DNA of 64,000 nucleotides. Origin: Rhodothermales bacterium. GTDB taxonomy: Bacteria > Bacteroidota > Rhodothermia > Rhodothermales > Bin80. Below, one piece after another: positions 53,562-59,254 of the stretch (position 1 is its first letter; the number at the start of each line of letters is the position of its first letter). The stretch is taken from assembly GCA_965200955.1 (NCBI GenBank), contig OZ241742.1, positions 3,446,070 to 3,510,069 on the forward strand, given 5' to 3'. A program made the translations under genes and the position numbers. Below the pieces are notes generated by a model. It saw nothing but the letters and a program-made list of their open reading frames with translations. It was not told where the DNA came from and made no database searches.

Positions 53562-54655
53562 TCCCTAACGATCTTGACTCCCACATGAGGTGATCCATCC
53601 TCTGATCATTGCGTCAGAGTGTTGAGATCTATGGTCATTCCCGAGACATTGAGTCATGTCCTCGGACCCGTAATGGCTAAGGTCAATCCGTCATGCTGAA
53701 TATTGACAAACAGCGTGGTGCCATCTGGTGAAAACGTTGCACCGGCCAGCTCGGAGTAACTCACGGCGTTCCGAGCAAATTTGTACAGTTCTCCTTGTGG
53801 AGTGACTCCAACTAGGAATTGCTCATTGGATCCATCCTCACAAACAATGAGATTTCCCCAAGGCGTGACGGTCAGGTTGTCCGCATTTTCTATCAGGCCT
53901 GGATCATTAGGCTCAATAAACAGCTCCAGGGTATCTTCGGCGGGGTTGAGTTTCCAGATCTGTCTGCACTTTGCGTTTCCTCCATTGGTGCAGGCAAAAT
54001 ACTCTGCATGATTACCATACCACATGCCTTCCCCTCGTGCAAACATAGCTGCTCCCTGATCAAATCACCGAAGTCGTTAATCCCCCATTGGGGCTTCCAC
54101 ATCGTCCATATCAATCCAGGTGATGTTCATGGTCTCACCTACGTTGACCATTTGGGAATCCCAGTTACGAGTATCGAGACTCGGCATTCCGACAATCTGC
54201 AATGCCTGCAATTGCCCCCCACCTCTACATCTTCTGGATTCTCAGGAATATATCGGTAGATTAAACTATCATGCTCATCTTCGGTCTGATAAATGATATT
54301 CGTATTTGGATCTACGGCAACCGCTTCATGATTGAACCTTCCCATTGCACGAATGGGCACGGGGGGCGTGACTTGGGGGATATCGTCTCAGGGACTTGAA
54401 AGATATACCCGTGGTCTTTTGCAAACCCATCTCCTGCTAATACCGTAATTTCTTCACAGGTGATCCAAGTGTTTCAGGGGGTTGGGCCACCCGCACAGTT
54501 GCGCAGTGTACCAGTAAGGCTCAGAAACTGCGAAACCAACTTCTGATTTTGCGTATCGTAGATCAGGGTTGTGGTACCACCAAGTGCAGGAGATCCATCT
54601 GTGCCAGCATCATAGAAATAACTTGTATCAAGGCGATTAAGGAGATTATTGTTTT

Positions 54656-56058
54656 GGGAATTATATACGTGAGTAACCATGTTAGACAGCCACTCCAACC
54701 GTATCCATTTCACGGCTCATAGGAGTCTCTAATGAGAACGCTCCTCCACGTGCAGATGCCCCAATCCCGAAGGCCAAGAGTATATTCGCAGATGCATTCA
54801 GATCTGCGTGATCCGTATGCCCACAGGACATACACTGAAACTTGCTTTGTGTCTTCCGATTCTTCTTGCTGGTATGTCCACACTGGTTACACCGTTGACT
54901 GGTATACTTAGGATCTACAAGGACTACGTTACCAAACTTGTAATCGCAGTAGAAATTAAATCTGCTCCATCCAGCATTCTGAATCACGCGGTTCAATCCT
55001 GCTTTGGCTTTTACATTCTTGCCAGGATCTTCAATCGTACCCTTGGCTGACTTGGACATGTTCTTGATCTTCAAGTCTTCACGCTTCAAAGTGTAAGCTT
55101 TCGCAGACAATTGACGGCTGTGCTGATGTGCCGCATTGACGCGGCAGTTCTTCTGTTTCCGCTTCCACTTGTTGATCTTCCGTTTGGTTCGCTTGTACCG
55201 TCCAGATCCTTTCTGTTGACGAGCTAACTTACGTTGATACCTGCGAATCCTTATTTCTTTATCCGTTAGATCAGGTAAAGGATACATGCCTCGTTCACCA
55301 TCAGATGAGGAATAAGAAATATTGTACGTGTTCAAATCAATGCCTATCTCTTTGCCATCATCCTCTCTTTCTGGCAGATCAAAGACTTTATAGAGTACGG
55401 ACATCTTCCAATAACGTCCGTCCTTCTTCACAGTCACTTCAATTGGCTCAGCGTTTGGATAAGGATTACCCCCTTTTCTACGCATCTTCATCCAGCCTAC
55501 CTTTTGAATATAGATATTGTCGTCTACAATCGTAAAAGCACTTTTCGGAGCTGTAAACGATTTATGCTTGTATTTATTATGGAATGTAGGGTGATCACGT
55601 AATCCTTTGAAAAACGCTTGCCATGCCTCTGCCTGCCCTTTTAAGGTATAACGTACAATATGAGATGAGTACTTAGATAACCAACCTGTTTCTTTACGTA
55701 AAGACGGGTAACGCTTGATTAACGAATAAAAGGATAACGAAGGGTTTTCCATATCCTCATGTTTGAATTCACTGTTAATCTGTTTTAGGATCACATTCCA
55801 CACAAACAGACATGCACCAACCAATCCATGCAATAACATGGCTTTATATTGGGTGCCCGGTAGTAATCGGTACTCTATTCCACGATAAGCAGTGGAACAG
55901 GAATGATCCGAAGAGTTAGAAGCCTTAACAGGCATGGTATCAAGGTTGATTGATAGTATGATAAGCAATGGGCAGGTTGGCTGACCTGTTCCATTGTGTC
56001 TGTTAAACACAACCAAATAAAAAGGTTCCGTTTGTGGTTACTCACGTATATAATTCCC
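54656..56058 (-). mobile_element. Non-autonomous TIR/TSD transposon (IS1595-like ends) carrying only tnpB
   Basis: Perfect 24-bp TIR GGGAATTATATACGTGAGTAACCA (54656-54679; reverse complement at 56035-56058). 8-bp direct repeat ATTGTTTT at 54648-54655 and 56059-56066. No transposase inside. Confidence 0.92.
54682..55935 (-). CDS. tnpB: RNA-guided endonuclease TnpB
   Basis: N-terminal YRLLP...FVWN, RuvC-I IGIDLN, RuvC-II REDLKIKNM, KAGLNR, YTSQRCNQCG..CMSCG zinc finger, RuvC-III HADLNASANI. ATG 55935 is the preferred start. Confidence 0.93.
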   Translation of the reverse strand: MPVKASNSSDHSCSTAYRGIEYRLLPGTQYKAMLLHGLVGACLFVWNVILKQINSEFKHEDMENPSLSFYSLIKRYPSLRKETGWLSKYSSHIVRYTLKGQAEAWQAFFKGLRDHPTFHNKYKHKSFTAPKSAFTIVDDNIYIQKVGWMKMRRKGGNPYPNAEPIEVTVKKDGRYWKMSVLYKVFDLPEREDDGKEIGIDLNTYNISYSSSDGERGMYPLPDLTDKEIRIRRYQRKLARQQKGSGRYKRTKRKINKWKRKQKNCRVNAAHQHSRQLSAKAYTLKREDLKIKNMSKSAKGTIEDPGKNVKAKAGLNRVIQNAGWSRFNFYCDYKFGNVVLVDPKYTSQRCNQCGHTSKKNRKTQSKFQCMSCGHTDHADLNASANILLAFGIGASARGGAFSLETPMSREMDTVGVAV

Positions 56059-56709
56059 ATTGTTTTCCCCTAAGGCACCCATCGTTGGATTTGCATCGGG
56101 GTTAACTTCATGATTTCGAATCAGGATGGTTTCTCCCTGTGGGCCTGAAAACGTCGCCATGCCATCAGCTGCCCCTGGAACATAGAAACCATCATCCATC
56201 CTATCTCCCATGCGAGATATGACTTTGTAACTAAAATTTTCAGGTAAATCCATGATCTCTTTGGGATCAGAGATGAGTGGACCAAATCTGTCCTTTGCCT
56301 GAGCGGTAAAGTTTTGGCATCCAACAAGTAAGTGAAGCCCCACAAAACCGAGTGCAAATGCACCCGAGGTCTGTAAAAACTGCCTACGAGATGTGGGAGA
56401 ATTGTGTAAATGAAGATCTTTCATTGAGAGTCATAAGTGGAAAATGGTACCAAATGTACACCAGTCTACTTGAACATGTTAATCTGAATATTGCAAATAT
56501 TCGGCATATTGCTCTTTCCGCGAAGACCCACCAACGAAATGAATACGTGACTCATATAAGGCAATGTTGTTATATCCGTTGATCATAGATGAGTTTACGA
56601 TGAAATGTCTGCTATTCATCAATGGATCATAGCTCATTGGATTATCATGTACAGACCTATAACTTGTCAAATCTCGCAGAAATGGATCTACTTGAAAATA
56701 CATACCCTC

Positions 56710-57620: not shown

Positions 57621-58982
57621 TCATGTCCACGGACCCATAATGGCTAAGGTCAATCCGTCATGCTGAATATTGACAAACAGCGTGGTGCCATCTGGTGAAA
57701 ACGTTGCACCGGCCAGCTCGGAGTGACTCACGGCATTCCGTGCAAATTTGTACAGTTCTCCTTGTGGAGTGACTCCAACTAGGAATTGCTCATTGGATCC
57801 ATCCTCACAAACAATGAGATCCCCCCAAGGCGTGACGGTCAGGTTGTCCGCATTTTCTATCAGGCCTGGATCATTAGGCTCAATAAACAGCTCCAAGGTA
57901 TCTTCGGTGGGGTTGAGTTTCCAGATCTGTCCGCGCTTTGCGTTTCCACCATTGGTGCAGGCAAAATACACTGCATGATTGCCATACCACATGCCTTCCC
58001 CTCGTGCAAACATAGCTGCTCCCTGATCAAATCCCCGAAGTCGTAAATCCCCCATTGGTGCTTCTCCATCGTCCATGTTGATCCAAGTAACGTTCATGAT
58101 CTCTCCCACATTGACGTTTTGTGCATCCCAGTTACGGGTATCAAGACTCGGCATTCCGACCACCTGCAATGCCTGCAATTGCCCCCCCGCCTCTACATCT
58201 TCTGGATTCTCAGGAATATATCGGTAGATTAAGCTATCATGTTCATCTTCGGTCTGGTAAATAATATTCGTGATTGGATCAACGGCTACCGCTTCATGAT
58301 TGAACCTTCCCATTGCACGAATCGGCACTGCAGGGGTAACCTGAGGTGAAATCGTAGCAGGTACCTGAAAAACATAGCCATGATCTTTTGCAAACCTATC
58401 TCCTGCCAAGACCGTGATTTCTTCACAGGTCATCCAAGTATTCCAAGGAGTTGGTCCACCTGCACAGTTGCGCAGTGTGCCAGCTAAACTCAGAAATTGC
58501 GATACCAGCTGCTGATTGTGCGTATCGTAGACTAAGGTTGTTGTTCCGCCAAGTGCAGGAGATCCATCGGTGCCCGCATCGTAGAAAAAATTTGAGTCAA
58601 GGCGATCAAGAAGATCATTCTTTTCCCCAAAGGCACCCATCATTGGGTCCGCATCGGGGTTGACTTCATGATTGCGGATCAGGATGGTTTCTCCCTGTGG
58701 GCCTGAAAACGTCGCCATGCCATCAGCTGCCCCTGGAACATAGAAACCATCATCCATCCTATCTCCCATGCGAGAGATGACTTTGTAACTAAAATTTTTA
58801 GGTAAATCCATGATCCCTTCTGGATCAGAGATGAGTGGACCAAATCTGTCCTTTGCCTGAGCGGTGAAGTTTTGGCATCCAACAAGTGAGTGGAGCCCCA
58901 CAAAACCTAAGGCAAAAGCACCTGAGGTGTGTAGAAATTGCCTCCGTGAAGTACGTGAATCCTGCAAGAGAAGATCTTTCAT
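57621..58982 (-). CDS. PhoX/DUF839-family alkaline phosphatase, Tat-exported lipoprotein (intact copy)
   Basis: SRRQFL twin-Arg plus LVGC; DGM, RNHE, RNCAGGPTPWNTWMTCEE, MGRFNHEA, ARGEG, DNL, CEDG, ELAGATFSPDGTTLFVNIQH. Confidence 0.9.
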   Translation of the reverse strand: MKDLLLQDSRTSRRQFLHTSGAFALGFVGLHSLVGCQNFTAQAKDRFGPLISDPEGIMDLPKNFSYKVISRMGDRMDDGFYVPGAADGMATFSGPQGETILIRNHEVNPDADPMMGAFGEKNDLLDRLDSNFFYDAGTDGSPALGGTTTLVYDTHNQQLVSQFLSLAGTLRNCAGGPTPWNTWMTCEEITVLAGDRFAKDHGYVFQVPATISPQVTPAVPIRAMGRFNHEAVAVDPITNIIYQTEDEHDSLIYRYIPENPEDVEAGGQLQALQVVGMPSLDTRNWDAQNVNVGEIMNVTWINMDDGEAPMGDLRLRGFDQGAAMFARGEGMWYGNHAVYFACTNGGNAKRGQIWKLNPTEDTLELFIEPNDPGLIENADNLTVTPWGDLIVCEDGSNEQFLVGVTPQGELYKFARNAVSHSELAGATFSPDGTTLFVNIQHDGLTLAIMGPWT

Positions 58983-59254
58983 TGACGAGTCATTTAGTGG
59001 AAAAGGGTGCACATTGTGGATGAGTCTACTCATCATGTTTCTTTTTTTCGGGGTATCTTCACTACTATAGATCTCTCACGAAGATCCGCCTTAAATCGCA
59101 TTTGTGGTCGACTCAATAACATTAACTTATATCCGTTGACCACAGATCTGTTTAAAATAATCAGAAGATTGATGATCGGTATCCTTACAAATGGATCACA
59201 CCCTGTGGAATTTTTGTTTAGATACAATAATTTGACATATTGATGTGATGAAGA

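What the first reader, a model, noticed from the sequence alone, without database searches (positions are those of the whole stretch)
54648..56066. TnpB nuclease packaged between DDE-type (IS1595-like) terminal inverted repeats with an 8-bp TSD and no transposase
Seen: a 1,403-bp insert with perfect 24-bp TIRs (GGGAATTATATACGTGAGTAACCA) and an exact 8-bp duplication (ATTGTTTT). Its only gene is a TnpB with all three RuvC acidic motifs and the zinc finger. Removing the insert plus one TSD restores the phosphatase frame (GENNNL, versus GEKNDL in the intact paralog), so the boundaries are unambiguous. Established: canonical TnpB hosts (IS200/IS605 with HUH TnpA, IS607 with serine recombinase) lack TIRs and make no TSD. 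8-bp TSDs in AT-rich targets and ends like GGnnATTAT are features of IS1595-family (ISNwi1-group) DDE elements. Inference: TnpB has been captured by an IS1595-type element and moves as a non-autonomous cassette mobilised in trans. This would be a bacterial parallel to Fanzor capture by unrelated eukaryotic transposons. I do not know of a description of this arrangement, but could not search for one.
Basis: partly seen in the sequence, partly recalled or inferred. Interest (0 to 1): 0.92.

Follow-up and report, generated by a model that had tools for sequence, protein, structure and literature searches.

The report
TnpB cassette riding IS1595 transposon ends
A small mobile element whose only gene is an RNA-guided nuclease (TnpB) borrows the ends of an unrelated cut-and-paste transposon family and is probably moved by that family's transposase, a kind of arrangement already reported in outline but here seen in detail, with a likely guide RNA and target motif.

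Summary
Window 54648-56066 holds a 1,403-bp insert with perfect 24-nt terminal inverted repeats (TIRs), an exact 8-bp target-site duplication (TSD) and one intact tnpB gene.

It is one of about 13 full or near-full tnpB cassettes in this genome. TnpB matches occur in 20 of 23 other genomes of the genus. Of 90 loci examined, 64 gave a clean TIR-tnpB-TIR element with its own 8-bp TSD.

The same genomes hold IS1595-family transposase elements whose TIRs are up to 24/24 identical to the cassette TIRs. No resolved element carries both genes, and the genome has no IS605-type TnpA. Mobilisation in trans by IS1595 transposases is therefore well supported.

A covarying RNA structure spans the last ~155 nt of tnpB and runs through the right TIR. 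A TnpB-clade-specific motif lies at positions -11 to -8 on the upstream flank only, a candidate TAM (transposon-adjacent motif) abutting the TSD.

The novelty claim is overstated. Altae-Tran et al. 2023 reported DDE-transposase-linked TnpBs with inverted ends and solo copies moved in trans.

The parts
54636..54655 (-). Predicted guide segment read out of the right end: the TSD copy (54648-54655) plus about 12 nt of flank
   Evidence: Inference from the position of the RNA scaffold and from how TnpB guide RNAs are built. No RNA data were available. The length is not determined.
54648..54655 (.). Target-site duplication, copy on the right-end side of tnpB (ATTGTTTT on the + strand)
   Evidence: The paralog overlap agrees.
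54656..54679 (.). Right-end (RE) terminal inverted repeat, 24 nt, downstream of tnpB
   Evidence: It is 23/24 identical to the TIRs of transposase elements L161 and L175.
54656..54834 (-). Predicted omegaRNA scaffold of about 179 nt. It overlaps the last ~155 nt of tnpB and ends at the element's last base. Helix 8 pairs 54700-54704 with TIR bases 54665-54669.
   Evidence: RNAalifold on 29 copies gave 39 pairs. Of these cells 98% are paired, 14 pairs carry compensatory changes, and 0 of 500 shuffles reach the observed values. Synonymous variation is lower there. The 5' limit is approximate.
54682..55935 (-). tnpB coding sequence, 417 aa plus stop (54682-54684), with the RuvC D-E-D motifs and the zinc finger intact
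   Evidence: dN/dS is 0.03-0.23 between copies.
55936..56034 (-). Left-end untranslated region of about 100 nt, where a promoter is presumed to lie
   Evidence: The spacing is conserved at 117-129 nt from the left end to the start region in most copies. No sigma-70-like site was found there.
56035..56058 (.). Left-end (LE) terminal inverted repeat, 24 nt, upstream of tnpB
56059..56066 (.). Target-site duplication, copy on the left-end side
56066..56069 (-). Candidate TAM window, positions -11 to -8 relative to the left end. It reads GGGA on the tnpB strand: three flank bases plus the first TSD base.
   Evidence: G at -9 in 47 of 63 cassettes. These four positions cluster by TnpB clade and no other flank position does. 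The function is inferred.
53654..56448 (-). Interrupted PhoX-family phosphatase pseudogene, the insertion target. Its two parts are 56059-56448 and 53654-54655.
   Evidence: Pfam PhoX match for the paralog. tblastn and blastn against the paralog show extra frameshifts.

Best explanation
The insert is a non-autonomous member of an IS1595-family transposon lineage. Two IS1595-type TIRs enclose a single cargo, an intact RNA-guided nuclease gene (tnpB), together with its guide-RNA (omegaRNA) scaffold.

Movement (strongly supported). IS1595 DDE transposases encoded elsewhere in the genome recognise the shared TIRs and move the cassette by cut-and-paste into AT-rich 8-bp sites, which makes the 8-bp duplication.

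Guide RNA (structure shown, function inferred). The omegaRNA is transcribed with, or within, the 3' end of tnpB. Its scaffold ends with the right TIR, so the RNA reads out into the duplicated 8 bp and the flank, which supply the guide.

Retention (inferred). TnpB loaded with that RNA can recognise the vacant form of its own insertion site: left flank, a single 8-bp copy, then right flank. That is possible when the left flank ends in a suitable TAM, mostly ..RG followed by A/T, and T in one clade. Cutting the vacant site would force repair from a sister copy that still holds the cassette. Copies at TAM-flanked sites would be kept and would accumulate. The element's own right junction ends in CCC, which is not a TAM, so it would be spared.
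For: Shown:
- Anatomy in the window.
- Twenty TIR pairs with GGGAATTATAT-type ends and 8-bp TSDs in the genome, and 13 full or near-full tnpB cassettes at 75-99.9% identity.
- The 332-, 342- and 310-aa proteins of the TIR-sharing elements are IS1595 transposases.
- The left end of cassette subfamily C equals both ends of the transposase element L010 over 29 nt.
- Of 63 cassettes, 41 have a TIR at least 22/24 identical to one of 34 resolved transposase elements, and 18 left ends are 24/24.
- 0 of 36 transposase elements hold tnpB, 0 of 64 cassettes hold a transposase, and similarity is confined to 19-26 nt at the ends.
- No Y1 TnpA is found in the genome.
- TnpB matches in 20 of 23 other genomes of the genus and IS1595 transposase matches in 20 of 23. 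TnpB matches outnumber transposase matches in some genomes, for example 44 against 6, 40 against 6 and 33 against 3.
- Purifying selection on tnpB.
- A covarying RNA structure that includes TIR bases, with dS 3-9 times lower over it in seven of the eight pairs for which dS could be computed (1.3 times in the closest pair, L020 against L017).

Supporting the TAM reading:
- At -9, G occurs in 47 of 63 cassettes against 15 of 34 transposase elements (p=0.004). C occurs in 2 of 63 against 10 of 34 (p=0.0004).
- There is no mirror bias on the right side: G at -9 in 47 cassettes against C at +9 in 16 (p=5e-8).
- Flank bases at -11, -10, -9 and -8 cluster on the TnpB tree (33, 0, 0 and 0 of 2000 shuffles reach the observed value), and no other flank position does.
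- A clade of 10 copies has T at -9 in 10 of 10. Its sister group has G in 4 of 4, with TIRs that are the same or differ at one or two bases.
Against: - No transposition, RNA or cleavage was observed. No RNA run is listed for this organism.
- Transposase elements also show some enrichment at -9 (G 15 and C 10 of 34). Part of the signal may therefore be the transposase's own target preference.
- Clade-specific motifs could track different cognate transposases rather than TnpB.
- An informative window of only 3-4 nt straddling the TSD is unusual for a TAM.
- 26 of 90 loci gave no clean TIR plus TSD and were dropped, and one duplicate was removed.
- In this genome the closest intact transposase elements match this copy's TIR at only 18-20 of 24 positions. 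The 23/24 matches are in other species of the genus.
- This copy and its nearest relative differ by 1.6%, so it has not moved very recently.
- Two full-length copies lack matching TSDs.
Confidence: 0.8

Rival explanations
1. The flank motif at -11 to -8 is the target preference of the IS1595 transposases, read asymmetrically because the subterminal sequences of the two ends differ. TnpB plays no part in where copies are found.
For: Transposase elements are also enriched for G or C at -9 (25 of 34). Cassette clades often carry different TIR types, which could mean different transposases.
Against: C is common at -9 in transposase elements (10 of 34) but nearly absent in cassettes (2 of 63). The T-clade and its G-type sister group have TIRs that are the same or differ at one or two bases, and both occur in one genome, yet they differ 10/10 against 4/4. 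Cassettes whose two 24-nt TIRs are identical still show the one-sided bias.
Confidence: 0.35
2. tnpB sits with its own IS605- or IS607-type ends inside an older short TIR element (a MITE). The TIRs are then a coincidental outer shell.
For: Short elements with similar ends and no tnpB exist: 192 bp (L001) and 994 bp (L014).
Against: The stop codon is 2 nt from the TIR. Helix 8 of the conserved RNA pairs with TIR bases and shows compensatory changes in 4 of 5 pairs. The TIR-tnpB-TIR layout holds across TnpBs from 35% to 100% identity. The genome has no Y1 TnpA. NCBIfam IS200_TnpB and IS607_TnpB scores are far below their cut-offs.
Confidence: 0.03
3. TnpB here is a passive passenger, or a domesticated RNA-guided DNA binder such as a repressor, with no role in keeping the element.
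For: IS1595-family elements in these genomes carry other cargo, such as DNA methyltransferases. A subfamily with a frameshifted tnpB still moved to new sites.
Against: The catalytic D-E-D motifs and zinc finger are invariant in the six copies aligned. dN/dS is 0.03-0.23 across copies that sit at different sites. The RNA scaffold is conserved with covariation up to the element's last base. The flank motif is one-sided and clade-specific.
Confidence: 0.1

Closest known systems
DDE-transposase-associated TnpB branches (DDE-1 to DDE-6) of Altae-Tran et al. 2023, PNAS (PMC10691335; section 9 read in full, other passages by term search)
   Same: TnpB sits between inverted terminal repeats of a DDE transposon. 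The 3' end of tnpB lies close to the transposon end. Solo TnpBs lie between ends nearly identical to those of transposase-bearing elements, and mobilisation in trans is inferred.
   Different: The only family named in that main text is IS630 (DDE-6), where transposase, an HTH protein and TnpB are co-encoded. A 2026 review adds ISL2 and IS1031. IS1595 is named in neither text. Here no co-encoded form was found in 100 resolved elements. I could not see their supplements, which may list this family.
IS1595 family insertion sequences, including members with passenger genes (Siguier et al. 2009, as summarised in PMC8101967, passages)
   Same: 8-bp TSDs, ends beginning GG, and a transposase with an N-terminal zinc ribbon plus the DDE_Tnp_IS1595 domain in the autonomous partners. 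Many partners carry cargo genes.
   Different: The cassette has no transposase, and its cargo is an RNA-guided nuclease whose RNA uses the TIR. The match of GGGAATTAT to the ISNwi1-group end consensus is recalled from ISfinder and was not checked here.
Fanzor1 and Fanzor2* in eukaryotic cut-and-paste transposons (Yoon et al. 2023, PMC10711439, passages; Bao and Jurka 2013, PMC3627910, passages)
   Same: A TnpB-family nuclease captured by unrelated TIR/TSD transposons. Non-autonomous copies encode only the nuclease. The TIR, and there also the TSD, is predicted to be part of the guide-RNA scaffold.
   Different: Those are eukaryotic and viral hosts and different transposon superfamilies. Merlin, the eukaryotic relative of IS1595, has 0 occurrences in Bao and Jurka 2013. 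Here the protein is an ordinary-length bacterial TnpB with the canonical D-E-D.
IS200/IS605 family, IS1341 group (tnpB-only elements) and the TnpB homing model (review PMC13565253, passages; abstract of bioRxiv 10.1101/2023.11.20.567912 in the listing)
   Same: A solo tnpB with a 3' guide RNA that reads into the flank, mobilised in trans. The proposed role is cutting the vacant site so that the element is restored by recombination.
   Different: IS605-type elements have no TIRs, make no TSD and use a Y1 TnpA, which this genome lacks. Here the vacant site contains one TSD copy, so the TAM would abut or overlap the duplicated bases.

Membership tests
TnpB (RNA-guided nuclease, OMEGA system) | OrfB_IS605 / RuvC core plus the zinc-ribbon TNB domain | tested here: met
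   Pfam PF01385 at 50.7 bits and PF07282 at 59.2 bits, both above cut-off. NCBIfam guided_TnpB at 201 bits against a cut-off of 100.
TnpB (RNA-guided nuclease, OMEGA system) | Catalytic D, E, D and the CxxC...CxxC finger present | tested here: met
   GIDLN, REDLK and HADLNASANI align with the corresponding motifs of a designed nuclease that is similar to solved TnpB. The residues are invariant in the 6 copies aligned.
TnpB (RNA-guided nuclease, OMEGA system) | Structured guide RNA overlapping the 3' end of the gene and ending at the element boundary | tested here: met
   39 pairs, 14 with compensatory changes, and 0 of 500 shuffles reach the observed values. This shows a structure, not an RNA. 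No Rfam family matched.
TnpB (RNA-guided nuclease, OMEGA system) | RNA-guided, TAM-dependent DNA cleavage | not testable with these tools
   There is only indirect evidence, the one-sided clade-specific flank motif.
IS200/IS605 family element | No TIRs and no TSD; hairpin ends; Y1 (HUH) TnpA in cis or in trans | tested here: not met
   A perfect 24-nt TIR and an 8-bp TSD. PF01797 gives 0 matches in the genome, while the control rings in 6 of 14 known genomes. NCBIfam IS200_TnpB scores 155.8 against a cut-off of 425.
IS607 family element | Serine-recombinase TnpA; no TIRs and no TSD | tested here: not met
   TIR and TSD are present. NCBIfam IS607_TnpB scores 72.4 against a cut-off of 350. I did not search for a serine-recombinase TnpA.
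IS1595 family (as a non-autonomous derivative) | 8-bp TSD and TIRs beginning GG | tested here: met
   Family features are as stated in PMC8101967.
IS1595 family (as a non-autonomous derivative) | TIRs shared with elements that encode a Zn_ribbon_IS1595 plus DDE_Tnp_IS1595 transposase | tested here: met
   For this copy the best match is 23/24, to L161 and L175 of other species, and 20/24 to the 1,453-bp IS of the same genome.
IS1595 family (as a non-autonomous derivative) | Encodes its own transposase | tested here: not met
   0 of 64 cassettes hold a transposase match. I therefore file it as a non-autonomous derivative, not as an IS.
IS1595 family, ISNwi1 group | End consensus of the ggnnatTAT type and transposase phylogeny | not testable with these tools
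   The consensus is recalled from ISfinder. No ISfinder search was possible.
MITE | Short, non-coding, TIR-bounded, with TSD, mobilised in trans | tested here: not met
   It behaves like a MITE in copy number and in depending on a transposase in trans, but it is 1.4 kb and carries a conserved gene under selection.

The most novel reading that the evidence does not exclude
TnpB homing has been adapted to a TSD-making DDE transposon. The guide begins in the duplicated 8 bp. The TAM is a 3-4-nt motif that ends the left flank and may overlap the first TSD base. The element's terminal CCC acts as the non-TAM that protects the occupied site. Sister TnpB clades have switched the key TAM base from G to T. 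If so, a nuclease cargo turns a cut-and-paste MITE-like element into a self-retaining one. That would explain why, in several genomes, cassettes far outnumber their transposases. It would also be the first bacterial case in which TAM, TSD and TIR can be read together from natural insertions.
Probability: 0.45. Interest if true: 0.75.

Novelty: new member of a known kind. Interest (0 to 1): 0.58.

Why it matters
A 2026 review says the OMEGA system is only weakly associated with DDE transposases. It suggests the benefit may be small because excision already leaves a break.

This genus offers a natural test bed for that question. It has tens of intact TnpB matches per genome, several diverged clades and matching transposase lineages. 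It also yields a predicted guide-RNA scaffold that shares bases with the transposase's binding site, and a predicted TAM that switches between sister clades.

It could show how an RNA-guided nuclease and a TSD-forming transposase are made compatible, which is the same problem Fanzors solved in eukaryotes. The compact 417-aa nucleases with possibly G-ending TAMs may also interest tool builders.

Tried and rejected
- Rfam search of the element found no family at E up to 1.
- RNA evidence: no RNA holder was listed for this stretch.
- Laying the four DNA runs (contigs only) showed contigs crossing both occupied junctions and no joint that skips the element from TSD to TSD. The joints near 54675/56032 lie within the TIRs and are uninformative. 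The runs may be the window's own source, so this says nothing about fixation.
- The search for related loci in genome contigs returned one locus, because its peptide patterns were too specific.
- A metagenome scan with a conserved 18-mer of the RNA core gave 38 loci. Most had no TnpB, and none added a clean TIR plus TSD.
- The sigma-70 promoter scan found nothing in the left-end leader.
- A suspected transposase-plus-TnpB element (L113) turned out to be a cassette inserted into a transposase gene.
- Loci fetched with 1-1.5 kb flanks were too short to resolve most transposase elements. I re-fetched 20 with wider flanks.
- Dropped before the counts: 26 of 90 TnpB loci without a clean TIR plus TSD, and one duplicate (L083 duplicates L021).
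- I considered and rejected a 9-bp TSD or shifted boundary for the clade with GGT before the TSD, because two of its copies have unambiguous 8-bp TSDs.
- I did not run structure prediction, complex prediction or the large protein searches, because they would not change the reading.
Full report
THE OBSERVATION. On the + strand ATTGTTTT (54648-54655) is followed by GGGAATTATATACGTGAGTAACCA (54656-54679). The reverse complement of that 24-mer stands at 56035-56058, followed again by ATTGTTTT (56059-66). The 24-mer occurs twice in the window with up to 3 mismatches allowed, and 0 of 100 shuffles gave any match.

The only long ORF runs on the minus strand. From the conserved MPV start at 55935 it encodes 417 aa. 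Pfam matches OrfB_IS605 and the Cas12f1-like TNB zinc ribbon. NCBIfam guided_TnpB scores 201 bits against a cut-off of 100. The best solved relatives are TnpB and Cas12f structures, with GIDLN, REDLK, HADLNASANI and two CxxC pairs in place. The stop codon lies 2 nt from the TIR.

The intact PhoX paralog 3 kb away (57621-59036) aligns on both sides of the insert, and the two pieces overlap by 9 nt. This models the empty site and an 8-bp duplication. The interrupted copy has at least two further frameshifts, so it is a pseudogene in its own right.

A FAMILY, NOT A SINGLE COPY. In the whole genome (one contig of 4.19 Mb) the TIR or close variants occur dozens of times. Twenty pairs of GGGAATTATAT-type ends have a TSD with at most one mismatch. 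BLASTN with this element finds 13 full or near-full tnpB cassettes plus fragments. They fall into three subfamilies at 75-99.9% identity. The nearest relative of this copy is 98.4% identical, and two copies of another subfamily are 99.9% identical. Each sits at a different site with its own TSD. Two full-length copies lack matching TSDs.

THE TRANSPOSASE LINK. The other TIR-bounded elements encode proteins with Zn_ribbon_IS1595 plus DDE_Tnp_IS1595. They match NCBIfam's IS1595 family transposase model.
- Five copies of a 1,453-bp IS, of which three carry a TAG stop in the transposase gene.
- A 3,679-bp element with an N6 DNA methylase as cargo.
- A 2,772-bp element with another methylase as cargo.

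Both ends of the 3,679-bp element are identical over 29 nt to the left end of cassette subfamily C. The 1,453-bp IS shares the first 15 nt with this copy.

Across the genus I resolved 34 independent transposase elements, most of them 2.4-4.4 kb with cargo. Of 63 cassettes, 41 have a TIR at least 22/24 identical to one of them, and 18 left ends are 24/24. This copy is 23/24 to two of them, both in other species.

Similarity stops at the TIRs (19-26 nt). None of 36 resolved transposase elements holds tnpB, and none of 64 cassettes holds a transposase. One apparent pairing was a cassette inserted into a transposase gene. The genome has no Y1 TnpA (0 matches, while the control rings in 6 of 14 known genomes).

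SPREAD. TnpB matches at E<=1e-20 occur in 20 of 23 other genomes of the genus and in 1 of 17 genomes of other genera (16 from other families of the order and one from the same family). In a sample of 401 genomes of the phylum, 7 have a match. The four outside the genus are 28-33% identical and show no such ends. IS1595 transposase matches occur in 20 of 23 genomes of the genus.

In some genomes TnpB matches far outnumber transposase matches: 44 against 6, 40 against 6 and 33 against 3. The tool warns that matches are not copy numbers.

Of 90 TnpB loci examined, 64 gave a TIR pair (at least 18/24) with a TSD of at most one mismatch, which is 63 after removing a duplicate. These include TnpBs only 35-43% identical to this one. 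The layout is therefore old and stable in this genus.

THE GENE IS KEPT. Between copies at different sites dN/dS is 0.03-0.23 over the first 370 codon columns. One subfamily in another genome shares several frameshifts yet sits at different sites with good TSDs. Broken copies can therefore still be moved.

A GUIDE-RNA-LIKE STRUCTURE THAT USES THE TIR. Synonymous codon diversity falls from about 0.45-0.55 to 0.20-0.35 in the last ~50 codons. In seven of the eight pairs for which dS could be computed it is 3-9 times lower there; in the closest pair (L020 against L017) it is only 1.3 times lower.

I aligned the last 230 nt plus 20 nt of flank from 29 diverse copies. RNAalifold gives 39 pairs in 8 helices. 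On that structure 98% of cells pair, 14 pairs show changes on both sides (98 cells), and no shuffle of 500 reaches any observed measure. Sliding the 3' partners by 1-3 columns drops pairing to 25-50%.

Helix 8 pairs a segment just after the invariant GAAAUGGAU with bases 10-14 from the element's end, inside the right TIR. Four of its five pairs change on both sides as the TIR type changes. The right TIR therefore appears to serve two readers, the transposase and the RNA. This mirrors what Yoon et al. 2023 predicted for Fanzor RNAs (passages). It is a predicted structure. No RNA data exist for this organism in the runs offered, and no Rfam family matches.

A ONE-SIDED FLANK MOTIF. I oriented the 63 insertions by tnpB.
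- The base just 5' of the TSD on the upstream side (-9) is G in 47, T in 12, A in 2 and C in 2.
- Position -10 is G in 32.
- The first three TSD bases are A or T in 61, 62 and 58.
- The mirror position beyond the right end shows no bias.

In the 34 transposase elements -9 is G in 15 and C in 10. G against non-G gives p=0.004 and C against non-C gives p=0.0004.

Flank bases are drawn anew at each insertion, so clustering on the TnpB tree reports a property of the element. On a 70-leaf tree, positions -11, -10, -9 and -8 need far fewer changes than shuffled labels. Respectively 33, 0, 0 and 0 of 2000 shuffles are as low as observed. None of the other 12 left-side or 8 right-side positions shows this.

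The sharpest contrast is a clade of 10 copies with T at -9 in all 10. Its sister group has G in 4 of 4, with TIRs that are the same or differ at one or two bases. Four frameshifted relatives with good TSDs also have T.

HOW IT MOST LIKELY WORKS. Supported by the sequence evidence, though not observed directly: an IS1595-type, trans-mobilised cassette. Inferred: the RNA scaffold ends at the last base of the element, so the guide is the TSD plus the right flank. The vacant site is left flank plus one TSD plus right flank, and it presents that target preceded by the end of the left flank.

The motif at -11 to -8 is therefore where a TAM should be. In many copies it reads ..TGAT..GGAT or ..GGAA, and it may include the first TSD base or two. 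Those bases would then act as part of the scaffold, as proposed for IS607 and Fanzor RNAs.

C is the one base nearly excluded at -9, and C is the element's own last base. That would keep the occupied right junction from being a target.

Under the homing model for IS605 TnpB, cutting the vacant site restores the element from a sister copy (abstract in the listing; review passages). Copies at TAM-flanked sites would then persist and accumulate. I put this part at about even odds. The main rival is a transposase preference.

WHAT IS KNOWN. The review PMC13565253 states that IS200/IS605 and IS607 have neither TIRs nor TSDs. It also states that some prokaryotic TnpBs are encoded with DDE transposases (ISL2, IS630, IS1031) surrounded by TIRs (passages). 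Its source, Altae-Tran et al. [quoted passage not shown]

The text searches for TnpB together with IS1595, and related term sets, found nothing on this pairing. The word IS1595 is absent from that main text. Supplements were closed and ISfinder could not be queried. IS1595 family features were taken from passages of PMC8101967. The ISNwi1-group end consensus is recalled, not checked.

VERDICT. The element is real, active in evolutionary time and correctly interpreted, but the kind is already in print. What is new here:
- the IS1595 partner;
- the strict separation of nuclease cassettes from transposase elements;
- the covarying RNA that shares bases with the TIR;
- the candidate TAM next to the TSD, with a G/T switch between sister clades.

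Noticed in passing
window 53654-54655 and 56059-56448 (minus strand), compared with 57621-59036: Two tandem PhoX-family phosphatase paralogs about 90% identical in DNA. The one hit by the cassette also carries at least two frameshifts, so it is a decaying duplicate.
   Followed up: partly
L008 (G000:C1:1629833-1633202): A tnpB cassette is itself interrupted by a roughly 2-kb insertion encoding a DDE_Tnp_ISAZ013-type transposase (Pfam PF07592).
   Followed up: partly
L113 (G007:C1:1688987-1693419): A shortened tnpB cassette is inserted into an IS1595 transposase gene, with a 7/8 TSD and G at -9. The cassettes can therefore knock out the transposases they would depend on.
   Followed up: yes
L115 (G007:C1:647299-651784): Another IS1595 transposase gene is split by about 1.37 kb that has no TnpB match. 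The nature of the insert was not determined.
   Followed up: no
L203-L207 (G021): A cassette subfamily shares the same set of frameshifts in tnpB yet sits at different sites, four of five with good 8-bp TSDs and T at -9. It looks like a non-coding derivative that still moves and may borrow TnpB in trans.
   Followed up: partly
L010 (G000:C1:2913875-2917553), L018 (G000:C1:3745488-3748259), L012 (G000:C1:3311410-3313768): IS1595-type elements with cargo: an N6 DNA methylase with an HsdR N-terminal piece, an N4/N6 methylase plus an unknown 227-aa protein, and a transposase-less element carrying an AAA-ATPase-like 437-aa ORF.
   Followed up: partly
G000:C1:545669-547073 and 855781-857185: Two full-length cassettes whose flanking 8-mers do not match each other. 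This could reflect recombination between copies or loss of one flank. Simple exchange between these two copies does not explain it.
   Followed up: partly
G000:C1:1090446-1091441, 1819043-1820038, 1242682-1243677: Three of the five copies of the 1,453-bp IS1595 element carry a TAG stop inside the transposase frame, so only two copies look intact.
   Followed up: no
left ends of cassettes, about 25-45 nt inside (for example window 56000-56034): A conserved subterminal motif (..ATGGAACC.. followed by a T-rich stretch and TTTGG) is shared by diverged cassette subfamilies. It could be a transposase-binding or promoter element.
   Followed up: no
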